Of a DNA stretch of 41,211 nucleotides, positions 15,982 to 21,684 are shown one piece after another. The stretch lies in IMG/VR virus record IMGVR_UViG_2698536518_000008, positions 1-41,211 of that record; one strand, 5' to 3'. Below the pieces are notes generated by a model, which had not been told where the DNA came from, made no database searches, and saw nothing but the letters and a program-made list of their open reading frames with translations. Source of the DNA: a virus. Taxonomy: Duplodnaviria > Heunggongvirae > Uroviricota > Caudoviricetes. A program made the position numbers and the translations under genes. The stretch's first letter is position 1, and every line of letters starts with the position of its first letter.

Positions 15982-16124
15982 CACTCGAATCCTACTTTGC
16001 TGATCATCTTCGTCTGCGATGGACTCGGTTACGCATCTATCGTCACCCAGGTTCATTTGCTACGGACTACCGAATTTTACGCAATTACATCAGCCGCTAT
16101 AAACCATCAGGAGCAGAAGCATGA
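15978..16124 (+). CDS. Small hypothetical protein (48 aa), not in supplied ORF track
   Basis: Hand translation [48 protein letters not shown]; ATGA overlaps at both ends (rusA stop and Q start). Confidence 0.3.
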
Positions 16125-16885
16125 ATCTCGAAAACACAGTGAAATACCACTTCGCGAAGTCAACGATGATTAGCGACGCTCCACGCGCGACAGCATCTGA
16201 CTCATTAACCGGCACTGACATTATGGCGGCGATCGGAATGACACAGAGCCGTGCTGCTCTCGGGTTCAGTGCATTCCTAGGAAAGATGGATATCAGTGAT
16301 TACGATCGCGAGCGAGCGATTGATTTGCTGACAAAATATGCAATTGAGCACTGCGATAAGGTTGCTGCCTTACGCAAGCTTGAGAGTGATGTTAAGCCAA
16401 AGGTAATGCAAGTTCTCGCAACTTTCGCCTTTGCTGATTACTCCCGGAGTGCGGCCAGCACCAGAACGTGCGACTGCTGCCATGGAAATAAGTTTGTCGA
16501 AGCTGAAGTAATGACGATGAAGCATATCGGACAGCCACACCTTAGCGAAAAAAGAGAGATGGTTAAGGTGCTTTGCCACAAATGCAAAGGGAAGGGTGCT
16601 CTGACCAACGCATGCCAGTGCAATGGCAAAGGAACAGTATTAGACAAAGAGAAAACTATTCTACAGCGCGGCGTTCCTGCATATAAAACCTGTACGCGCT
16701 GCAATGGGCGTGGTTATGCCAGATTGCTACCTGATAGCGTCCGTAAATACATCTGCGTAACGGTGATGGATATACCTGAAACCACGTGGCGCAGGTCTTA
16801 CAAGGATTTTTTCGAAAGTCTGGTAGGTGAGTGCATCAAGCAGGAAGAGTACGCAAACCAGATGTTGAACAAAGTCACGCGATAG
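16121..16885 (+). CDS. Q-like late-gene antiterminator (Cys-rich zinc-binding)
   Basis: 254 aa; four C-x2-C-like motifs (CDCC, CHKC, CQCNGKG, CTRCNGRG); last gene before a long non-coding region that precedes the lysis and structural genes. Confidence 0.6.
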   Translation: MNLENTVKYHFAKSTMISDAPRATASDSLTGTDIMAAIGMTQSRAALGFSAFLGKMDISDYDRERAIDLLTKYAIEHCDKVAALRKLESDVKPKVMQVLATFAFADYSRSAASTRTCDCCHGNKFVEAEVMTMKHIGQPHLSEKREMVKVLCHKCKGKGALTNACQCNGKGTVLDKEKTILQRGVPAYKTCTRCNGRGYARLLPDSVRKYICVTVMDIPETTWRRSYKDFFESLVGECIKQEEYANQMLNKVTR

Positions 16886-16927
16886 TGAATGTTTTCTATG
16901 AAATAGGATTTATCTAGAAAACTACAC

Positions 16928-16956
16928 TTTACAAAGTGGCGATTTTTGTTTAATCT
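16928..16956 (+). promoter_or_regulatory. Candidate late promoter (pR'-like)
   Basis: TTTACA-N17-TAATCT about 45 nt downstream of the Q stop codon. Confidence 0.35.
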
Positions 16957-17138
16957 CGATTCTAACGATGGGTTACTGACTTCGTTGGCGGTGAGGCAAA
17001 AGAGGCGGCTCTCACCACTGAACCGCCTAGTTGGTATCTTCGGCGCATCGTCTGGTACTCCAACCGTAGAGAGCTGAGAGGTTCTCCAAGACCTGAGTAA
17101 TCAGGCCGCCATCTGGATGATGGCGTTGTCATTCAATA

Positions 17139-17196: not shown

Positions 17197-17410
17197 TATC
17201 TGCACAACAGGTAAGGGCATTTTCAGAGTTCGACTCTCTGGGTGGGTATTCGTGCCGACACGCGAGACGTGAGTGCTCTTTCCGTTGTGGTGAATTGTAA
17301 AGTCAGAGGACGTGATGTTAGGCGTAATCTGGAATTAGCCACCAGACACCACTATCTCAAATACCTACCAGGACCATAAGAGCGAAAGCTCAACGCACTA
17401 CCCTCATCTT

Positions 17411-17434
17411 GCCAGCATCGCCGCTGGCTTTTTT
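17411..17434 (+). terminator. Intrinsic terminator
   Basis: GCCAGC-atcgcc-GCTGGC followed by TTTTTT. Confidence 0.55.
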
Positions 17435-17511
17435 AAAGCGCATTACCACCAAGAACCAGACCCAACCAACTCATTGCTGAATATCTGTGGCTACGGTGAT
17501 TAGTGCGCTTC

Positions 17512-17539
17512 AAAAAAGAAAACCCAGCACATGGCTGGG
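17512..17539 (-). terminator. Minus-strand intrinsic terminator with no upstream minus-strand CDS
   Basis: Plus-strand AAAAAAGAAAA-CCCAGC-acatg-GCTGGG; U-tract follows the hairpin only on the minus strand. Confidence 0.45.
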
Positions 17540-17774
17540 CTTCGTGAAGATGGGCGGCAAGAGAACTGAATACTCGTCACCCGGAATGGTGCCTACGTAC
17601 CTGCGAAAGTCGAATTGATGTCTGGTTGCAGATGGCAGAAGCCATGCTGTACTTACCAATGTGTGATGTATTCGATAAAAAAGCTGATCGATTCCGGTTG
17701 CAAAGTTGCGCGGGGATTGCTTGAATTCAGCTATGCTCGCGAAGCTACACCCGCAGCGATAGATAAAAATTAAT

Positions 17775-17803
17775 AACCCGCCGATGAGCGGGTTTTCTTT
17801 TTT
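17775..17803. terminator. Bidirectional-looking intrinsic terminator upstream of the kinase cassette
   Basis: AACCCGC-cgatga-GCGGGTT followed by TTCTTTTTT and preceded by A-rich run. Confidence 0.55.
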
Positions 17804-17825
17804 GAGGTGTATTTAAGCTGCTGCA

Positions 17826-17893
17826 GGGTGTAGATAGATTTCTTTGGAAAATTAAACCTATTGATATGGTGTGGTTTTTCTTTTGGGTGTAGA
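17826..17893. repeat. Direct repeats GGGTGTAGAT upstream of kinase gene (candidate regulator sites/promoter region)
   Basis: GGGTGTAGAT at 17826-17835 and 17884-17893, related GGTGTAT at 17804-17810 and GGTGTGG at 17868; AT-rich surroundings with TTGATA hexamer at 17861. Confidence 0.35.
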
Positions 17894-17925
17894 TTTTGCT
17901 CATGAGAATTTTATGTGAGTAAGCT

Positions 17926-18708
17926 ATGGAACCCAGGGGTAATTACCTTATAAAACCATTGAGAGATCTAGGTTTTGGTGCTTTTGGTCGTGTGGAAAAG
18001 GTTGAGGTATATAACACCGATAGCCATCTTTGTGGTGAGTATGCAAGGAAAGTTCTTTCAGTTAATCCTGCGTTATTAAATGAATATTTTAGTGTAGATG
18101 ACTGGAAGCGTCGGTTTAAGCGTGAAGTCGACTACCAAGCCAAGTGCAATCATGATCATGTTGTAAGAATTTGCATACATCATTTAAGCATAGAAAACCC
18201 TTGGTTTGTGATGGAGTTGGCAGAAACAGACCTAAGAAGCGAACTAAAAGCGGGCGTTCTTTCTGATGATGAAAAGCTGTTAGCCCTGAAGATGGTGTTT
18301 GAAGGCGTTAAGTATATCCATGACGCTGGGTTGCTTCACAGGGATCTGAAACCTGAGAATATCCTCAAGTTTGAAGGAGGCTGTTACAAAATTTCCGATT
18401 TCGGCCTAATCAAAAGTATGGATTCGAAAGCCCAATCTGATTTTTTGTCAGGTGTACTTCAAAACAAAAAAATGGGTATTGGCACTGCTAAGTACATGTC
18501 TGACGAGGCTAAACGCGGAGTATATACACAGAAATCAGATATTTACGCGCTAGGTGTTATTACTAGTGAAATGAATCTATCTCATATTGACGGTATAACG
18601 ACATTAATCGATAAATCAGCGGCATTTACGCCTCGTTCAAGGTACGATTCTGTCACTGAGATGATAGACATTCTTGATGATATTGTTGCAGCAAGGAGAG
18701 GCAAATGA
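17926..18708 (+). CDS. Hanks-type (eukaryotic-like) Ser/Thr protein kinase, catalytic domain only
   Basis: 260 aa; Gly-loop GFGAFG (aa 16-21), catalytic Lys in YARKV (K42), HRDLKPEN catalytic loop (aa 138-145, nt 18337-18360), DFG (158-160), SDIYALG subdomain IX; AT-rich codon usage unlike flanking phage genes. Confidence 0.85.
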   Translation: MEPRGNYLIKPLRDLGFGAFGRVEKVEVYNTDSHLCGEYARKVLSVNPALLNEYFSVDDWKRRFKREVDYQAKCNHDHVVRICIHHLSIENPWFVMELAETDLRSELKAGVLSDDEKLLALKMVFEGVKYIHDAGLLHRDLKPENILKFEGGCYKISDFGLIKSMDSKAQSDFLSGVLQNKKMGIGTAKYMSDEAKRGVYTQKSDIYALGVITSEMNLSHIDGITTLIDKSAAFTPRSRYDSVTEMIDILDDIVAARRGK

Positions 18709-19496
18709 TTGAGTTGTTGAGCTGTGGTGCATTTTCATGCCCCAAAGATCATGGTCGTGAAAACCAAGATGCGTTACTACTCCCGCAACAATGTGATGAT
18801 GGCTTCATTTTTGCTATTGCTGATGGTGTCGGGTCTTATGCTGGTGCTAAAGAAGCAGCGCAAGCTGCAGTAGACTATGTCGCAACTCATAAACTGAAAG
18901 CCAGTTCTGATCCTGATGCGATACTTAGTGGTGCAAAAGACAAAATATCTGAACTATCTCAGTTCGATTCAGAGAAGCGCAAGGCCGCAACAACATTATC
19001 CTACTGTGTTGTACATGGTGAGTTACTTAATGTAATCCATGTAGGCGATACTCGGGTGTATGTAAAAATTGATAACAAATTAAAACTACTAACGAAAGAT
19101 CACTCACAGCATCAAGAGTTGCTCGACGATGGGTTATATACGAAAAGGGAATTGGAAGACTTACCAGGAAAGAACATGCTTACTGCAGCTATTTCTAAAG
19201 TCCTGCCAATAAAATTTCAGCATATTTCGTTACCCCTGTCAGATTTGATGGACCATGACGGTGTTGTTTCTCTTTTTCTGATGTCCGATGGAGCCCATCA
19301 CTTCTGGGAACGCCGCCCGCGTTTTTCTCCCAATACATTGAAGAATGCTACTAACTTTTCAACCAATCTTTTTAAGCGGATACAGCGCGCTGGACCAACT
19401 GACGATCATTCACTGATTGCTGTGAATTTAAAGATAAGCCTGAAAAATGAAGAATCACTTAACCCATTTAAACTACATAAGCCATTGGGTAATTGA
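18705..19496 (+). CDS. PP2C/PPM-family Ser/Thr protein phosphatase
   Basis: 263 aa; metal-binding motifs FAIADGVGSYAGA, HVGDTRVY, KDHSQ and LMSDGAHH typical of PPM phosphatases; ATGA overlap with kinase stop. Confidence 0.8.
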   Translation: MIELLSCGAFSCPKDHGRENQDALLLPQQCDDGFIFAIADGVGSYAGAKEAAQAAVDYVATHKLKASSDPDAILSGAKDKISELSQFDSEKRKAATTLSYCVVHGELLNVIHVGDTRVYVKIDNKLKLLTKDHSQHQELLDDGLYTKRELEDLPGKNMLTAAISKVLPIKFQHISLPLSDLMDHDGVVSLFLMSDGAHHFWERRPRFSPNTLKNATNFSTNLFKRIQRAGPTDDHSLIAVNLKISLKNEESLNPFKLHKPLGN

Positions 19497-19640
19497 TGCA
19501 ACTACAGTGCTGGCTCAATCTTAAACGGCCATCACAACCACAGGCGTCTGACCATAGGTGATGACATTTGCCATAACGGTGAAGCGGAAGTTTTAGAAGG
19601 ACCTCTCGCTCCACCTATATAAACAAGTTAACTCACTTCG

Positions 19641-19665
19641 AGGCTGCCAACTGGTGGCCTTTTTC
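19641..19665 (+). terminator. Intrinsic terminator downstream of phosphatase gene
   Basis: AGGCUGCC-aacu-GGUGGCCU stem (two G-U pairs) followed by TTTTCATTTC. Confidence 0.45.
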
Positions 19666-19775
19666 ATTTCAGGCTCACGGGAATCAATTACTACGTGCTT
19701 TGTTGATAAATCCAGCCCGTGAAGCCTGACCTTATCATCACACACAGCGCCATCCGAAAAATCGGAGGTGAGGCT

Positions 19776-20054
19776 ATGACCAGAATGAGCACCATTTACA
19801 GCAGACTTTCATATGGAACAGGAACCACGCTGACCGGCTGCGGTGTATCAGCGAAGGCATATGCCGAAACAGCTAAAACAGCAAAAGAGGTGTCCTGGAT
19901 GTTGGCCGACAGAATTGCAGGGTTAAGCCTGAGCGACTGGGCAATTATTGTCGGTATCGCATGTACGGTAATCACCTGTGCAGTGAACTGGTATTTCCGC
20001 TGGAAAGAACGGGAGGATCGGCGCAATGGGTATGCCACCAAAGCTGAGGAATAA
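19776..20054 (+). CDS. Holin (pinholin-like, S21-type) with dual-start motif
   Basis: Track ORF 19719..20054; probable start ATG 19776 after GGAGGTGAGG SD; begins M-T-R-M (two Met codons flanking Arg, classic holin/antiholin dual start); hydrophobic helix IIVGIACTVITCAVNWYF and charged C-tail RWKEREDRR. Confidence 0.65.
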   Translation: MTRMSTIYSRLSYGTGTTLTGCGVSAKAYAETAKTAKEVSWMLADRIAGLSLSDWAIIVGIACTVITCAVNWYFRWKEREDRRNGYATKAEE

Positions 20055-21123: not shown

Positions 21124-21684
21124 TTAACGATTTTCTGGATGCACTCTCGCGTTGAGTGTATCGATAAAATCATGTTTAGTAATGCCCACATTGTGAACCC
21201 AATTCTTAGCTCTGGCAGGAAGGAAAACTTCAAGCATACGTTGGTAAATTGCAACAGAGGGCATGTGAGAGTTCCGGGTGAGATCGTCTTTGCCGCTAAA
21301 CCGTCCCATTCGTTTCAATAAACTACCAATCAAAAGAAACTTTGATTCGTTGTTACCGTCAAATCCGGGGAATGTGAGTGATAATTTCTCATCGAAATTA
21401 CGAATAGATTTGGCAACCTCTGCTTTGTCTTCCGCACTGAATCGTTCGTATGTGTATTGGAGAATGTCATACATATCATAGGTATCAACGAAAAGCTGGA
21501 CTTCCCAGGGGGTCTCCTCTTCTTCATCTTGAAGGCCTGGGTATTCCCAGGATAAAGCCCAGTAGTTATCCGTGCTCACTGCTTCGTCAATGAGGTCAGG
21601 ATCAAATGAGTTTTCAATTTCTAATGCTCGGTGAATATCACTGAGCATCATGATCTGTAGTTTTTCTTGCTGTGAGTATTTCAT
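21124..21684 (-). CDS. Opposite-strand AT-rich moron protein, tentatively YfbU-like (UPF0304)
   Basis: 186 aa; AT-rich; only minus-strand gene in the late region; segments TYDMYDIL, LTFPGFDG and YQRMLEVF recall E. coli YfbU as I remember it (unverified). Confidence 0.45.
   Translation of the reverse strand: MKYSQQEKLQIMMLSDIHRALEIENSFDPDLIDEAVSTDNYWALSWEYPGLQDEEEETPWEVQLFVDTYDMYDILQYTYERFSAEDKAEVAKSIRNFDEKLSLTFPGFDGNNESKFLLIGSLLKRMGRFSGKDDLTRNSHMPSVAIYQRMLEVFLPARAKNWVHNVGITKHDFIDTLNARVHPENR

What the first reader, a model, noticed from the sequence alone, without database searches (positions are those of the whole stretch)
17775..19665. Terminator-insulated Ser/Thr kinase + PP2C phosphatase cassette in the Q-to-lysis moron slot
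Two translationally coupled genes (ATGA overlap at 18705) encode a minimal Hanks-type kinase with all catalytic motifs intact (GFGAFG, K42, HRDLKPEN, DFG) and a PPM/PP2C phosphatase with intact metal-binding motifs. The cassette is visibly AT-rich compared with the phage backbone, sits between the Q antiterminator and the holin (the classical cargo site of lambdoid phages), and is bracketed by intrinsic terminators (17775-17803 upstream, 19641-19665 downstream) with its own AT-rich upstream region containing GGGTGTAGAT direct repeats. This looks like an autonomously transcribed moron. Kinase-based abortive infection or superinfection exclusion is established in principle (for example staphylococcal Stk2), so a kinase held in check by a cognate phosphatase is a plausible undescribed phage-defence or host-manipulation module; the specific function is inference.
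Basis: partly seen in the sequence, partly recalled or inferred. Interest (0 to 1): 0.85.

Follow-up and report, generated by a model that had tools for sequence, protein, structure and literature searches.

The report
Mobile kinase–phosphatase pair in prophage
A temperate phage carries a foreign two-gene unit, a protein kinase coupled to its own phosphatase, that travels between many phages and plasmids and probably kills or arrests the cell when a rival phage infects, although its function has never been tested.

Summary
Window 17926-18708 encodes a 260-aa Hanks-type Ser/Thr kinase. Window 18705-19496 encodes a 263-aa PP2C phosphatase, joined to it by an ATGA overlap. The pair lies between antiterminator Q and the holin, in the most AT-rich 1.7 kb of the window.

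All catalytic residues are invariant across about 40 homologues of each protein, and both folds are predicted with confidence.

The pair is a conserved mobile module. Every one of about 100 loci examined has the kinase directly followed by the phosphatase. It sits in at least six accessory slots of lambdoid phages, including the rexAB position just after cI in 12 contigs. It also occurs on a filamentous prophage, on plasmids beside Septu-like and RelE genes, and next to a NACHT gene.

Relatives keep a terminator before and after the pair and a -10-like element about 30 nt before the start codon.

The idea of a kinase held in check by a cognate phosphatase is already published for the KKP module (Guo et al. 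2024). This cassette is not KKP: it has one kinase, the reverse gene order, no CSD or FHA domains, and only fold-level similarity. It is best read as an untested two-gene variant of a phosphorylation-based toxin-antitoxin defence.

The parts
16121..16885 (+). Antitermination protein Q; left neighbour of the slot
   Evidence: Pfam PF03589 Antiterm, 8.4e-44. It is 83% identical in DNA to the Q region of P22-like Salmonella phage SI8.
16886..17564 (+). Post-Q leader region of the backbone, P22-like, presumed to hold PR'/qut. It has terminator-like hairpins at 17107-17125 and 17411-17428.
   Evidence: blastn: 16802-17091 (88%) and 17358-17564 (96%) match SI8 downstream of its Q gene. Hairpins. The position of PR' is inferred, not shown.
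17557..17724 (+). 3' remnant (55 codons) of a second, different Q-like gene (DUF1133 family); a recombination scar
   Evidence: It is 100% identical over 55 aa to residues 138-192 of an E. coli prophage DUF1133 protein. That protein also hits Phage_antitermQ. The DNA match 17556-17796 is 97%.
17775..17803 (.). Intrinsic terminator upstream of the cassette: hairpin 17775-17794 with T run, and an A run on the other side, so it is bidirectional
   Evidence: found on both strands. It came in with the DUF1133 fragment. Relatives in the Q slot have a hairpin of different sequence at the same distance, 124-136 nt before the ATG.
17797..17925 (+). AT-rich upstream region (GC 0.34) with candidate promoter elements. 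These are an extended -10 TGATATGGT at 17862-17870, a -10-like TAGATT at 17889-17894 inside the second GGGTGTAGAT copy, and repeat copies at 17826-17835 and 17885-17894.
   Evidence: Homology with the Pectobacterium cassette starts at 17836. Conserved blocks appear. The TAnnTT hexamer about 30 nt before the ATG keeps its position across distant cassettes. The generic promoter scan found nothing here at 9 of 12 matches, so promoter activity is inferred.
17926..18708 (+). Minimal Hanks-type Ser/Thr protein kinase, 260 aa
   Evidence: Pkinase 2.9e-32 and phrog_2361 7.4e-70. Invariant residues are G18, G21, K42, E67, HRD138-140, K142, N145, DFG158-160 and D205. AlphaFold pLDDT is 88.8 with a disordered activation loop at 170-183. 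Foldseek TM is 0.7-0.79 to protein kinases, including PknB.
18705..19496 (+). PP2C/PPM phosphatase, 263 aa, translationally coupled by the ATGA overlap, with a strong SD (AAGGAGAGG, 18693-18701)
   Evidence: PP2C_2 5.7e-15. Invariant residues are N20, D22, D40, G41, G43, GDxR114-117, SDG194-196 and DD233-234. pLDDT is 92.3. TM is about 0.8 to PstP, STP and tPphA. The predicted SD duplex is -8.5 kcal/mol against -2.2 for the kinase.
19434..19496 (+). Window-specific C-terminal tail of the PP2C (about 18 aa); right-hand recombination junction
   Evidence: Homology with relatives ends at 19433, aa 243-248. Homologues are about 245 aa. The tail is unaligned and has low pLDDT. The same 263-aa allele exists in an ENA metagenome as P0121.
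19534..19661 (+). Backbone pre-holin piece: an isrI-like element at 19534-19626, then an intrinsic terminator at 19640-19661
   Evidence: Rfam isrI scores 40.1 bits, below the gathering score of 45. Terminator. The same sequence lies directly upstream of the holin in E. coli SC476, HK225, Louie and Klebsiella phages that lack the cassette.
19776..20054 (+). Holin; right neighbour of the slot. The ORF is callable from GTG 19719 and the likely ATG is at 19776.
   Evidence: Phage_holin_2_3 2.9e-11. The length matches the 279-nt holin of E. coli SC476. The SD GGAGGTGA is read.

Best explanation
Identity (shown). The cassette is a self-contained, horizontally mobile two-gene module. It encodes an active-looking Ser/Thr kinase followed by its cognate PP2C phosphatase, inserted as a moron between Q and the lysis genes.

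Mechanism (inferred). It most likely works as a phosphorylation-based toxin-antitoxin, abortive-infection or superinfection-exclusion system.
- In the lysogen the pair would be made from its own weak promoter, about 17860-17900. Upstream terminators shield it from PR' read-through. A downstream terminator protects the lysis genes.
- The phosphatase has a much stronger ribosome-binding site than the kinase and is translationally coupled to it. It would therefore be made in excess. It would keep the RD-type kinase, or its substrates, dephosphorylated.
- A protein of an infecting phage would tip this balance, either by inhibiting the phosphatase or by activating the kinase.
- The kinase would then phosphorylate many host or phage proteins and stop growth and phage production.
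- During this phage's own lytic growth the cassette is also expected to be read through by Q-modified polymerase.
For: Enzymes are intact and under selection:
- Catalytic residues are invariant in about 40 homologues of each protein.
- Both folds are predicted with confidence.

Obligate cognate pair:
- The kinase is directly followed by the PP2C in 21 of 21 kinase-seeded loci and 80 of 80 PP2C-seeded viral contigs. The junction is an ATGA overlap or a 1-2 nt gap.
- Identities of the two proteins fall together: 90/80, 73/58, 53/51, 44/45, 37/38%.

Mobility typical of defence or TA cargo:
- Q to lysis slot, about 13 contigs.
- Lysis to terminase slot, about 18-20 contigs.
- Directly after cI on the same strand, 12 contigs. 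This is the rexAB position of lambda and the position of stk in 933W.
- After N, 4 contigs.
- Near tail genes.
- At the end of a Zot/Rep filamentous prophage in Vibrio vulnificus.
- Next to a NACHT/nSTAND gene and SymE in Xanthomonas.
- On small Acinetobacter plasmids beside an AAA-ATPase plus HNH pair or a RelE/ParE pair.

Moron anatomy is conserved:
- Upstream terminators keep their position but differ in sequence. Downstream terminators follow most relatives.
- The -10-like hexamer keeps its position.
- This is the lowest-GC stretch of the window.

Asymmetries expected of a toxin and antitoxin:
- The PP2C SD is stronger than the kinase SD in 16 of 16 loci.
- Two independent deletions removed the kinase catalytic half while leaving the PP2C intact. 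No intact kinase without a PP2C was seen.

Precedent:
- In KKP the kinases are toxic, the PP2C neutralises them, and T4 Gp59 inhibits the phosphatase to trigger defence (PMC11341870).
- 933W Stk excludes HK97.
Against: - There are no expression, toxicity or phage-challenge data for any member of this family.
- No consensus sigma-70 promoter was found in 17797-17925 by the generic scan. My promoter candidates are weak, at 2-4 of 6 matches in the -35.
- In this window, and in about 40% of viral contigs, the pair sits co-oriented inside the late operon. That placement fits a lytic-cycle role equally well.
- PADLOC hits (mad6, PD-T4-6, Stk2) cover only the generic kinase domain and score like Pfam Pkinase. 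PD-T4-6 models also call housekeeping kinases.
- The PP2C has no significant defence-library match; PDC-M21C scores 1e-4.
- The SD and deletion asymmetries come from related sequences and small numbers.
- The window's PP2C has a non-native C-terminal tail whose effect is unknown.
Confidence: 0.5

Rival explanations
1. Lytic-cycle host takeover or counter-defence. The kinase is made with the late (or, in other phages, early) genes and phosphorylates host proteins or defence systems to favour the phage's own growth, as the T7 kinase does. The phosphatase limits the extent or timing.
For: - The cassette is co-oriented with the late operon, downstream of Q and the presumed PR'.
- About 30 of 80 viral contigs place it in late-operon slots, and 4 place it after N in the early-left operon.
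- Phage kinases that disarm defences are described: a T7 kinase preprint and JSS1_004 (abstracts listed).
Against: - Terminators before and after the pair, and a promoter-like element that travels with it, are unnecessary for a gene that simply rides the late transcript.
- Late expression is too late for counter-defence.
- The pair also lives on plasmids, in chromosomal islets and directly after cI, where no lytic programme drives it.
- An obligatorily coupled antagonist is not a feature of the T7-type kinases.
Confidence: 0.17
2. Prophage regulatory switch. The kinase/phosphatase balance tunes lysogeny or induction of this or co-resident prophages by phosphorylating a nucleoid-silencing protein (H-NS family) or a repressor. 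KKP does this through MvaU.
For: - KKP controls Pf virion production through MvaU phosphorylation (PMC11341870).
- Twelve contigs place the pair right after cI.
- The cassette is strongly AT-rich, the kind of DNA that H-NS binds (the H-NS link is established knowledge, not tested here).
Against: - The pair is also found on small plasmids and in non-prophage islets with no prophage to regulate.
- It sits in many unrelated slots.
- There is no DNA- or RNA-binding or FHA domain to direct it to a regulator.
- This role could coexist with defence, as it does in KKP.
Confidence: 0.13
3. Pure addiction module or host-physiology conversion. The pair stabilises its carrier element as a toxin-antitoxin, or alters host stress or virulence signalling, with no role against phages.
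For: - It lies next to RelE/ParE on a 10.7-kb plasmid.
- The decay pattern is that of a TA pair.
- From my own knowledge, the Salmonella Typhi prpZ-prkY-prkX cluster, which I believe is the CT18 KKP module, was linked to macrophage survival. I did not check this in the library.
Against: - A stable enzyme antitoxin does not give classical post-segregational killing.
- Its neighbours include recognised defence genes: an AAA+HNH pair annotated as retron or defence-related, and NACHT.
- TA modules in such places usually turn out to defend.
- There is no secretion signal or effector domain.
Confidence: 0.12

Closest known systems
KKP (PfpC-PfkB-PfkA) kinase-kinase-phosphatase module of Pf6 and of P2, P4 and Mu-like prophages (Guo et al., Nat Commun 2024, PMC11341870)
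   Same: - Prophage or MGE-borne Hanks-type Ser/Thr kinase together with a PF13672 PP2C_2 phosphatase.
- The logic proposed here is the one shown there: the kinase is toxic, the phosphatase neutralises it, and a phage protein upsets the balance.
- Both are found on filamentous and tailed prophages.
   Different: - Two genes, not three.
- Gene order is kinase then phosphatase, not phosphatase, kinase, kinase.
- The kinase is a bare 260-aa catalytic domain with no CSD or FHA domain, and those domains are required for KKP toxicity.
- The PP2C is about 245 aa, not more than 300.
- Against a KKP-type locus I found in Klebsiella phage Kp4865-2, the kinase is 27-31% identical and the PP2C shows no significant BLASTP similarity.
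Stk of Shiga-toxin phage 933W
   Same: - A eukaryote-like kinase carried by a lambdoid prophage.
- It is encoded in the PRM operon after cI, where 12 relatives of this cassette also sit.
- It is reported to block HK97.
   Different: - Only 20% identity, at fold level.
- 348 aa.
- No adjacent phosphatase.
- It is described as a tyrosine kinase, whereas this one has the Ser/Thr-type HRDLKPEN and GTxxYM motifs.
Single-gene kinase defences: staphylococcal Stk2 and E. coli PD-T4-6; also MAD6 of the MADS system
   Same: A Hanks-type kinase domain, and kinase-dependent abortive infection as the proposed output.
   Different: - PADLOC matches cover only the catalytic domain: Stk2 positions 153-357 of 500, PD-T4-6 17-202 of 292, mad6 53-249 of 659.
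- The NCBIfam MAD6 score is 59 against a cut-off of 460.
- Those systems have no cognate phosphatase, and they have extra domains that this kinase lacks.
Lambdoid morons (lambda bor and lom, stx in the Q-S slot, rexAB after cI)
   Same: - Foreign composition.
- Inserted between genes that are adjacent in relatives (SI8, E. coli strain 44 and SC476).
- Flanked by terminators, with its own promoter-like region.
   Different: The cargo is an enzyme pair that acts on proteins, not a surface or toxin protein. Its promoter activity has not been shown.

Membership tests
KKP module (Guo et al. 2024) | Three adjacent genes in the order PP2C, kinase, kinase | tested here: not met
   There are two genes in the order kinase then PP2C, and no second kinase within the slot. 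All of about 100 relatives have the same two-gene order.
KKP module (Guo et al. 2024) | PfkA-like kinase with a C-terminal cold-shock domain, and PfkB-like kinase with a C-terminal FHA domain | tested here: not met
   The kinase is 260 aa. Pfam finds only Pkinase, PK_Tyr_Ser-Thr and a sub-threshold ABC1 kinase-like match over residues 12-217. The model shows one kinase domain and nothing else.
KKP module (Guo et al. 2024) | Phosphatase of Pfam family PF13672 (PP2C_2) | tested here: met
   PP2C_2 5.7e-15, above the gathering score. There is no significant BLASTP similarity to the PP2C of a KKP-type locus.
KKP module (Guo et al. 2024) | Kinase toxicity neutralised by the phosphatase; defence against lytic phages | not testable with these tools
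   This needs expression and plaque assays.
Hanks-type (eukaryote-like) Ser/Thr protein kinases | Gly-rich loop, VAIK Lys, alphaC Glu, HRDxKxxN catalytic loop, DFG, and a GT..(A/S)(P/D)E P+1 segment | tested here: met
   G16, G18, G21, K42, E67, H138, R139, D140, K142, N145, D158, F159, G160, G186, T187 and E194 are invariant or nearly so in 40 sequences. The fold is confirmed.
PPM/PP2C phosphatases | Metal-binding Asp residues of motifs I, II, VIII and XI, on a beta-sandwich fold | tested here: met
   D22, D40 (DGxGG), D195 (SDG) and D233-D234 are invariant in 39 sequences. TM is about 0.8 to PstP, STP and tPphA.
933W Stk family | Sequence relatedness beyond the kinase fold | tested here: not met
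   20% identity over 220 columns in BLASTP. 933W is absent from the tblastn hits at E<=1e-5.
Stk2 / PD-T4-6 / MAD6 defence kinases (PADLOC, NCBIfam) | Full-length match to the family model | tested here: not met
   Only the catalytic core matches. MAD6 scores 59 bits against a cut-off of 460. PD-T4-6 models are known to call housekeeping kinases.
TerY-P triad (from my own knowledge of Anantharaman, Iyer and Aravind 2012 and Gao et al. 2020; not re-read here) | A TerY/vWA protein next to the kinase and the PP2C | tested here: not met
   The neighbours are a Q-gene remnant and the holin, and no third gene lies in the cassette. No vWA domain appears in any annotated neighbourhood.
Moron (autonomous accessory transcription unit of lambdoid phages) | Inserted between genes adjacent in related phages; atypical composition; a terminator downstream | tested here: met
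   GC is 0.403 against 0.517. Terminators follow 5-62 nt after the PP2C in relatives and 144 nt after it here.
Moron (autonomous accessory transcription unit of lambdoid phages) | Own promoter, active in the lysogen | tested here: inconclusive
   A conserved -10-like TAnnTT lies about 30 nt before the ATG, and the close clade has an extended -10. The generic scan found none. There are no transcript data.

The most novel reading that the evidence does not exclude
The two-gene kinase-PP2C pair is an evolutionarily independent, minimal phosphorylation-based immune module. The phosphatase acts as the sensor that invading phages disable, and a bare kinase domain acts as the executioner. It is spread across more than 100 tailed and filamentous phages and plasmids of Gammaproteobacteria, and in many phages it occupies the place that RexAB holds in lambda.
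Probability: 0.4. Interest if true: 0.6.

Novelty: new variant of a known kind. Interest (0 to 1): 0.47.

Why it matters
If confirmed, this would be the simplest phosphorylation-based defence or toxin-antitoxin module known: one bare kinase domain and one small PP2C, about 1.6 kb in all.

- It would show that the KKP principle does not need the CSD and FHA accessory domains or a second kinase.
- It would show that the principle arose more than once.
- Its small size and sharp boundaries, and the natural experiments already found, make it easy to test. Those experiments are the many insertion slots and the deletions that remove only the kinase.
- It would be a convenient system for asking how a phage protein tips a kinase/phosphatase balance.
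- It would add a candidate that current defence finders either miss or mislabel as PD-T4-6.

Tried and rejected
- **Genome-contig scan seeded with the kinase alignment.** The tool chose the generic HRDLKPxN and YKISDFGL motifs and returned only unrelated kinases from Planctomycetes, Actinomycetes and others.
- **tRNA search.** None found, so this slot is unlike the tRNA-bearing Stx-phage slot.
- **Near-identity DNA search.** The cassette is absent from 5,426 E. coli genomes and from the phage collection. Only flanking backbone pieces match.
- **PADLOC.** High-scoring kinase hits (mad6, PD-T4-6, Stk2) were rejected as family assignments because they cover the catalytic domain only.
- **Rfam Trp_leader hit at 17701-17801 (22.6 bits, E 0.37).** Rejected. 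It is the terminator hairpin.
- **5'-UTR hairpin overlapping the kinase SD.** It is present in six relatives, but its energy is no better than shuffles in most (z from -0.3 to -2.0). It is not claimed.
- **The 52-aa ORF 17615..17773.** I first took this for the DUF1133 remnant, but it is in the wrong frame. The real remnant is 17557-17724.
- **First GGGTGTAGAT copy as a regulatory repeat.** It is not conserved in any relative.
- **Membership in KKP or the 933W Stk family by sequence.** Rejected.
- **Literature searches.** No paper was found that tests this two-gene family. The library is limited to open-access papers and bioRxiv.
Full report
**1. What is in the sequence**

The two ORFs are as described: 17926..18708 (260 aa) and 18705..19496 (263 aa), overlapping in ATGA at 18705-18708.
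- Pfam assigns the first to Pkinase (2.9e-32) and the second to PP2C_2 (5.7e-15) and PP2C.
- PHROGs places the kinase in phrog_2361, 'serine-threonine kinase', and the phosphatase in phrog_5650, of unknown function.
- No NCBIfam model reaches its cut-off.
- On the left is antiterminator Q (PF03589, 16121..16885). On the right are a holin (ORF 19719..20054, likely ATG at 19776), a lysozyme and an Rz-like gene.
- The cassette is the most AT-rich 1.7 kb of the window: GC 0.403 against 0.517, and GC3 0.35 against 0.53-0.63 in backbone genes.

**2. Are the enzymes functional?**

I aligned the window proteins with about 40 homologues each, down to 35-38% identity.
- In the kinase, G18, G21, K42, E67, H138, R139, D140, K142, N145, D158, F159, G160 and D205 are invariant. 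G186, T187 and E194 are nearly so. HRDLKPEN and GT..YM are the Ser/Thr-type forms of these motifs; that reading rests on the established Hanks subdomains.
- In the phosphatase, N20, D22, D40, G41, G43, G114, D115, R117, S194, D195, G196, D233 and D234 are invariant.
- AlphaFold models are confident, with pLDDT 88.8 and 92.3. Only the kinase activation loop (170-183) and the last 18 residues of the phosphatase are poorly ordered.
- Foldseek returns protein kinases at TM 0.70-0.79, including PknB. It returns bacterial PP2Cs (PstP, STP, tPphA) at TM about 0.8.

**3. The slot is a mosaic**

Pairwise blastn shows four pieces.
- 16802-17091 and 17358-17564 resemble the region after Q in P22-like Salmonella phage SI8. 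In SI8, Q is followed by the holin with no cargo.
- 17556-17796 is 97% identical to the end of a DUF1133 gene and its downstream hairpin in an E. coli prophage. Window 17557-17724 encodes its last 55 residues at 100% identity. DUF1133 is itself Q-like.
- The cassette proper, shared at 80% with a Pectobacterium prophage, runs from 17836 to 19433.
- From 19548 on, the sequence matches the pre-holin region of prophages that lack the cassette. This piece includes a sub-threshold isrI-like element and the terminator at 19640-19661.

Three conclusions follow.
- The right-hand junction lies inside the phosphatase gene. That explains why this allele is 263 aa while relatives are about 245 aa.
- The upstream terminator arrived with a fragment of another phage's Q-like gene.
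- The downstream terminator belongs to the backbone.

**4. A conserved, mobile pair**

- The kinase family comprises about 110 clusters of 243-263-aa proteins. The phosphatase family comprises about 120 clusters of about 245-aa proteins. Both are confined to Gammaproteobacteria: Enterobacterales, Vibrio, Aeromonas, Xanthomonas, Pasteurellaceae and Acinetobacter.
- In every locus examined the kinase is directly followed by the phosphatase. This holds for 21 of 21 kinase-seeded loci and 80 of 80 PP2C-seeded IMG/VR contigs, out of 116 found.
- The junction is ATGA in most loci and a 1-2 nt gap in the rest.
- The identities of the two proteins to the window copy fall in parallel, as expected of a co-evolving pair.

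**5. Where the pair sits**

- Same slot as here, Q to lysis: phiES15, a Pectobacterium prophage and about 11 other contigs.
- Between Rz and the terminase: Flotzy, Enterobacter hormaechei, Pantoea and about 18-20 contigs, with different terminase types on the right.
- Directly after a CI-type repressor gene on the same strand, 111-340 nt away: 12 contigs. The CI genes were identified by HTH_3, Peptidase_S24 and Phage_CI_repr. This is the position of rexAB in lambda (established knowledge) and of stk in the pM operon of 933W.
- After an N-like gene: 4 contigs.
- Beside tail genes.
- At the end of a Zot/Rep_trans filamentous prophage in Vibrio vulnificus.
- Beside a NACHT/nSTAND3 gene and SymE in Xanthomonas.
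- In small chromosomal islets in Aeromonas and Pectobacterium.
- On small Acinetobacter plasmids beside an AAA-ATPase plus HNH pair annotated as defence-related, or beside RelE/ParE, and on a conjugative Vibrio plasmid.

This is the distribution of a self-sufficient accessory module, not of a phage core function.

**6. Transcription-unit anatomy**

- All seven relatives in the Q slot have an intrinsic-terminator hairpin 124-136 nt before the kinase ATG. The sequence differs in each lineage.
- Most relatives have a terminator 5-62 nt after the phosphatase stop.
- The roughly 90 nt before the ATG are conserved with the Pectobacterium cassette.
- A simple position-weight scan finds a -10-like hexamer (TAGATT here at 17889-17894; TAAATT, TACATT or TAACTT elsewhere) ending about 30 nt before the ATG. 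It is present even in cassettes at 44-53% protein identity that sit in other slots.
- The close clade also has an extended -10, TGnTATGGT, at 17862-17870.
The first copy is not conserved.
- The generic scan calls no promoter here, so promoter activity is inferred.
- The phosphatase has a strong Shine-Dalgarno sequence, AAGGAGAGG, with a predicted duplex of -8.5 kcal/mol. The kinase has a weak one at -2.2. The phosphatase site is the stronger in 16 of 16 loci, and distant kinases often start with GTG or TTG. The module thus seems built to make more brake than engine. This is an inference, and the loci are related.

**7. Decay pattern**

- Three viral contigs carry a kinase that has lost its promoter and catalytic half while the phosphatase is intact.
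- The breakpoints show two independent deletions.
- I saw no intact kinase lacking its phosphatase.
- The numbers are small, but this is the asymmetry expected if the kinase is harmful when unopposed.

**8. Comparison with what is known**

KKP is the closest functional precedent (PMC11341870).
- It is a PP2C_2 phosphatase (PfpC) followed by two kinases with FHA and CSD domains, found in more than 1,000 prophages.
- The kinases together are toxic and the phosphatase neutralises them.
- The module defends against lytic phages, and T4 Gp59 binds and inhibits the phosphatase.
- The present cassette fails the KKP architecture tests: gene number, gene order, and the CSD and FHA domains.
- I found a KKP-type locus in P2-like Klebsiella phage Kp4865-2: PP2C_2 of 364 aa, then kinases of 358 and 356 aa, next to the integrase. 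I identified it from architecture only, because Pfam did not detect CSD or FHA at E<=0.001. Against it, the window kinase is 27-31% identical and the phosphatase shows no significant similarity.

Other comparators:
- 933W Stk is only 20% identical and has no phosphatase.
- PADLOC hits to mad6, PD-T4-6 and Stk2 are catalytic-domain matches of the same strength as Pfam Pkinase.
- PD-T4-6 models also pick up housekeeping kinases.
- I found no paper that tests this two-gene family.

**9. Most likely mechanism and its rivals**

I favour, at about 0.5, a phosphorylation-based toxin-antitoxin or abortive-infection module. It would be expressed in the lysogen, with the phosphatase as brake and probable sensor and the kinase as effector.
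- Shown: the enzymes' integrity, the obligate pairing, the mobility, the conserved terminators, and the placements after cI and beside defence genes.
- Inferred: promoter activity, the stoichiometry, toxicity, the trigger and the outcome.

Rivals:
- A lytic-cycle takeover or counter-defence kinase, about 0.17. The late-operon placement favours it. The insulation, the coupled antagonist and the non-phage locations weaken it.
- A lysogeny or induction regulator, about 0.13. This could coexist with defence, as it does in KKP.
- A pure addiction or host-physiology function, about 0.12.

**10. Verdict**

The moron reading is well supported by comparison. The underlying principle is already published, so this is a new two-gene variant of a known kind rather than a new kind of system.

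Noticed in passing
window 17557-17724: A 3' remnant (55 codons, 100% identical to an E. coli prophage protein) of a second, DUF1133-type Q-like antiterminator gene lies downstream of the intact PF03589 Q. The slot therefore records an earlier recombination with a phage that had a different late regulator.
   Followed up: yes
window 19534-19661: An isrI-like element (Rfam RF01392, 40.1 bits, just under the gathering score) is followed by a terminator directly upstream of the holin. It is conserved in prophages without the cassette. It may be a leftover late-leader RNA (like lambda 6S) of another phage type, or a prophage sRNA.
   Followed up: partly
window 21124-21684 (- strand): A YfbU-domain gene (PF03887, phrog_6084) lies on the opposite strand between Rz and the small terminase. 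This is the other slot in which the kinase-phosphatase pair sits in many relatives. It is probably a second, unrelated moron, in a region of low GC (0.43-0.46).
   Followed up: partly
L174 5138-5810, L176 186-974, L177 4923-5739: Two independent deletions removed the promoter and catalytic half of the kinase while the PP2C stayed intact, in phages where a DUF3560 gene precedes the pair.
   Followed up: yes
L186 2291-5482 (Klebsiella phage Kp4865-2, OK490418.1, unannotated record): A phosphatase-kinase-kinase locus of KKP type (364, 358 and 356 aa) lies next to the integrase of a P2-like phage. Pfam did not detect CSD or FHA domains in the C-terminal parts at E<=0.001.
   Followed up: partly
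MT837907.1, MT835987.1, MT836046.1, MT835527.1 (human faecal 'Bacteriophage sp.' contigs): Distant relatives (24-33% identity) of both proteins occur in the opposite order, PP2C before kinase, separated by about 190-340 nt. This may be a third arrangement of the same idea in gut phages.
   Followed up: no
L010/L011 7590-8237 (Aeromonas veronii): In the Aeromonas islet the pair is followed at 7 nt by a DUF4760 gene with membrane-like features. This may be a three-gene variant.
   Followed up: partly
window 17897-17922 and the same place in L005, L019, L021, L023: A small hairpin in the presumed 5' UTR has a 3' arm that covers the weak kinase Shine-Dalgarno sequence, with one G-U to G-C change between relatives. 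Its folding energy is not better than shuffles in most sequences.
   Followed up: partly
PHROG phrog_5650: The PP2C matches positions 273-526 of a 565-column profile. Some members of that PHROG may therefore be kinase-phosphatase fusions, or the profile may be built from concatenated gene calls.
   Followed up: no
window 17743-17752 (-), 17826-17835 (+), 17885-17894 (+): Three of the five window-wide matches to GGGTGTAGAT (at up to 1 mismatch) cluster within 150 nt upstream of the kinase, one of them inverted. Only 1 of 100 shuffles reaches five matches. No binding protein is known.
   Followed up: partly
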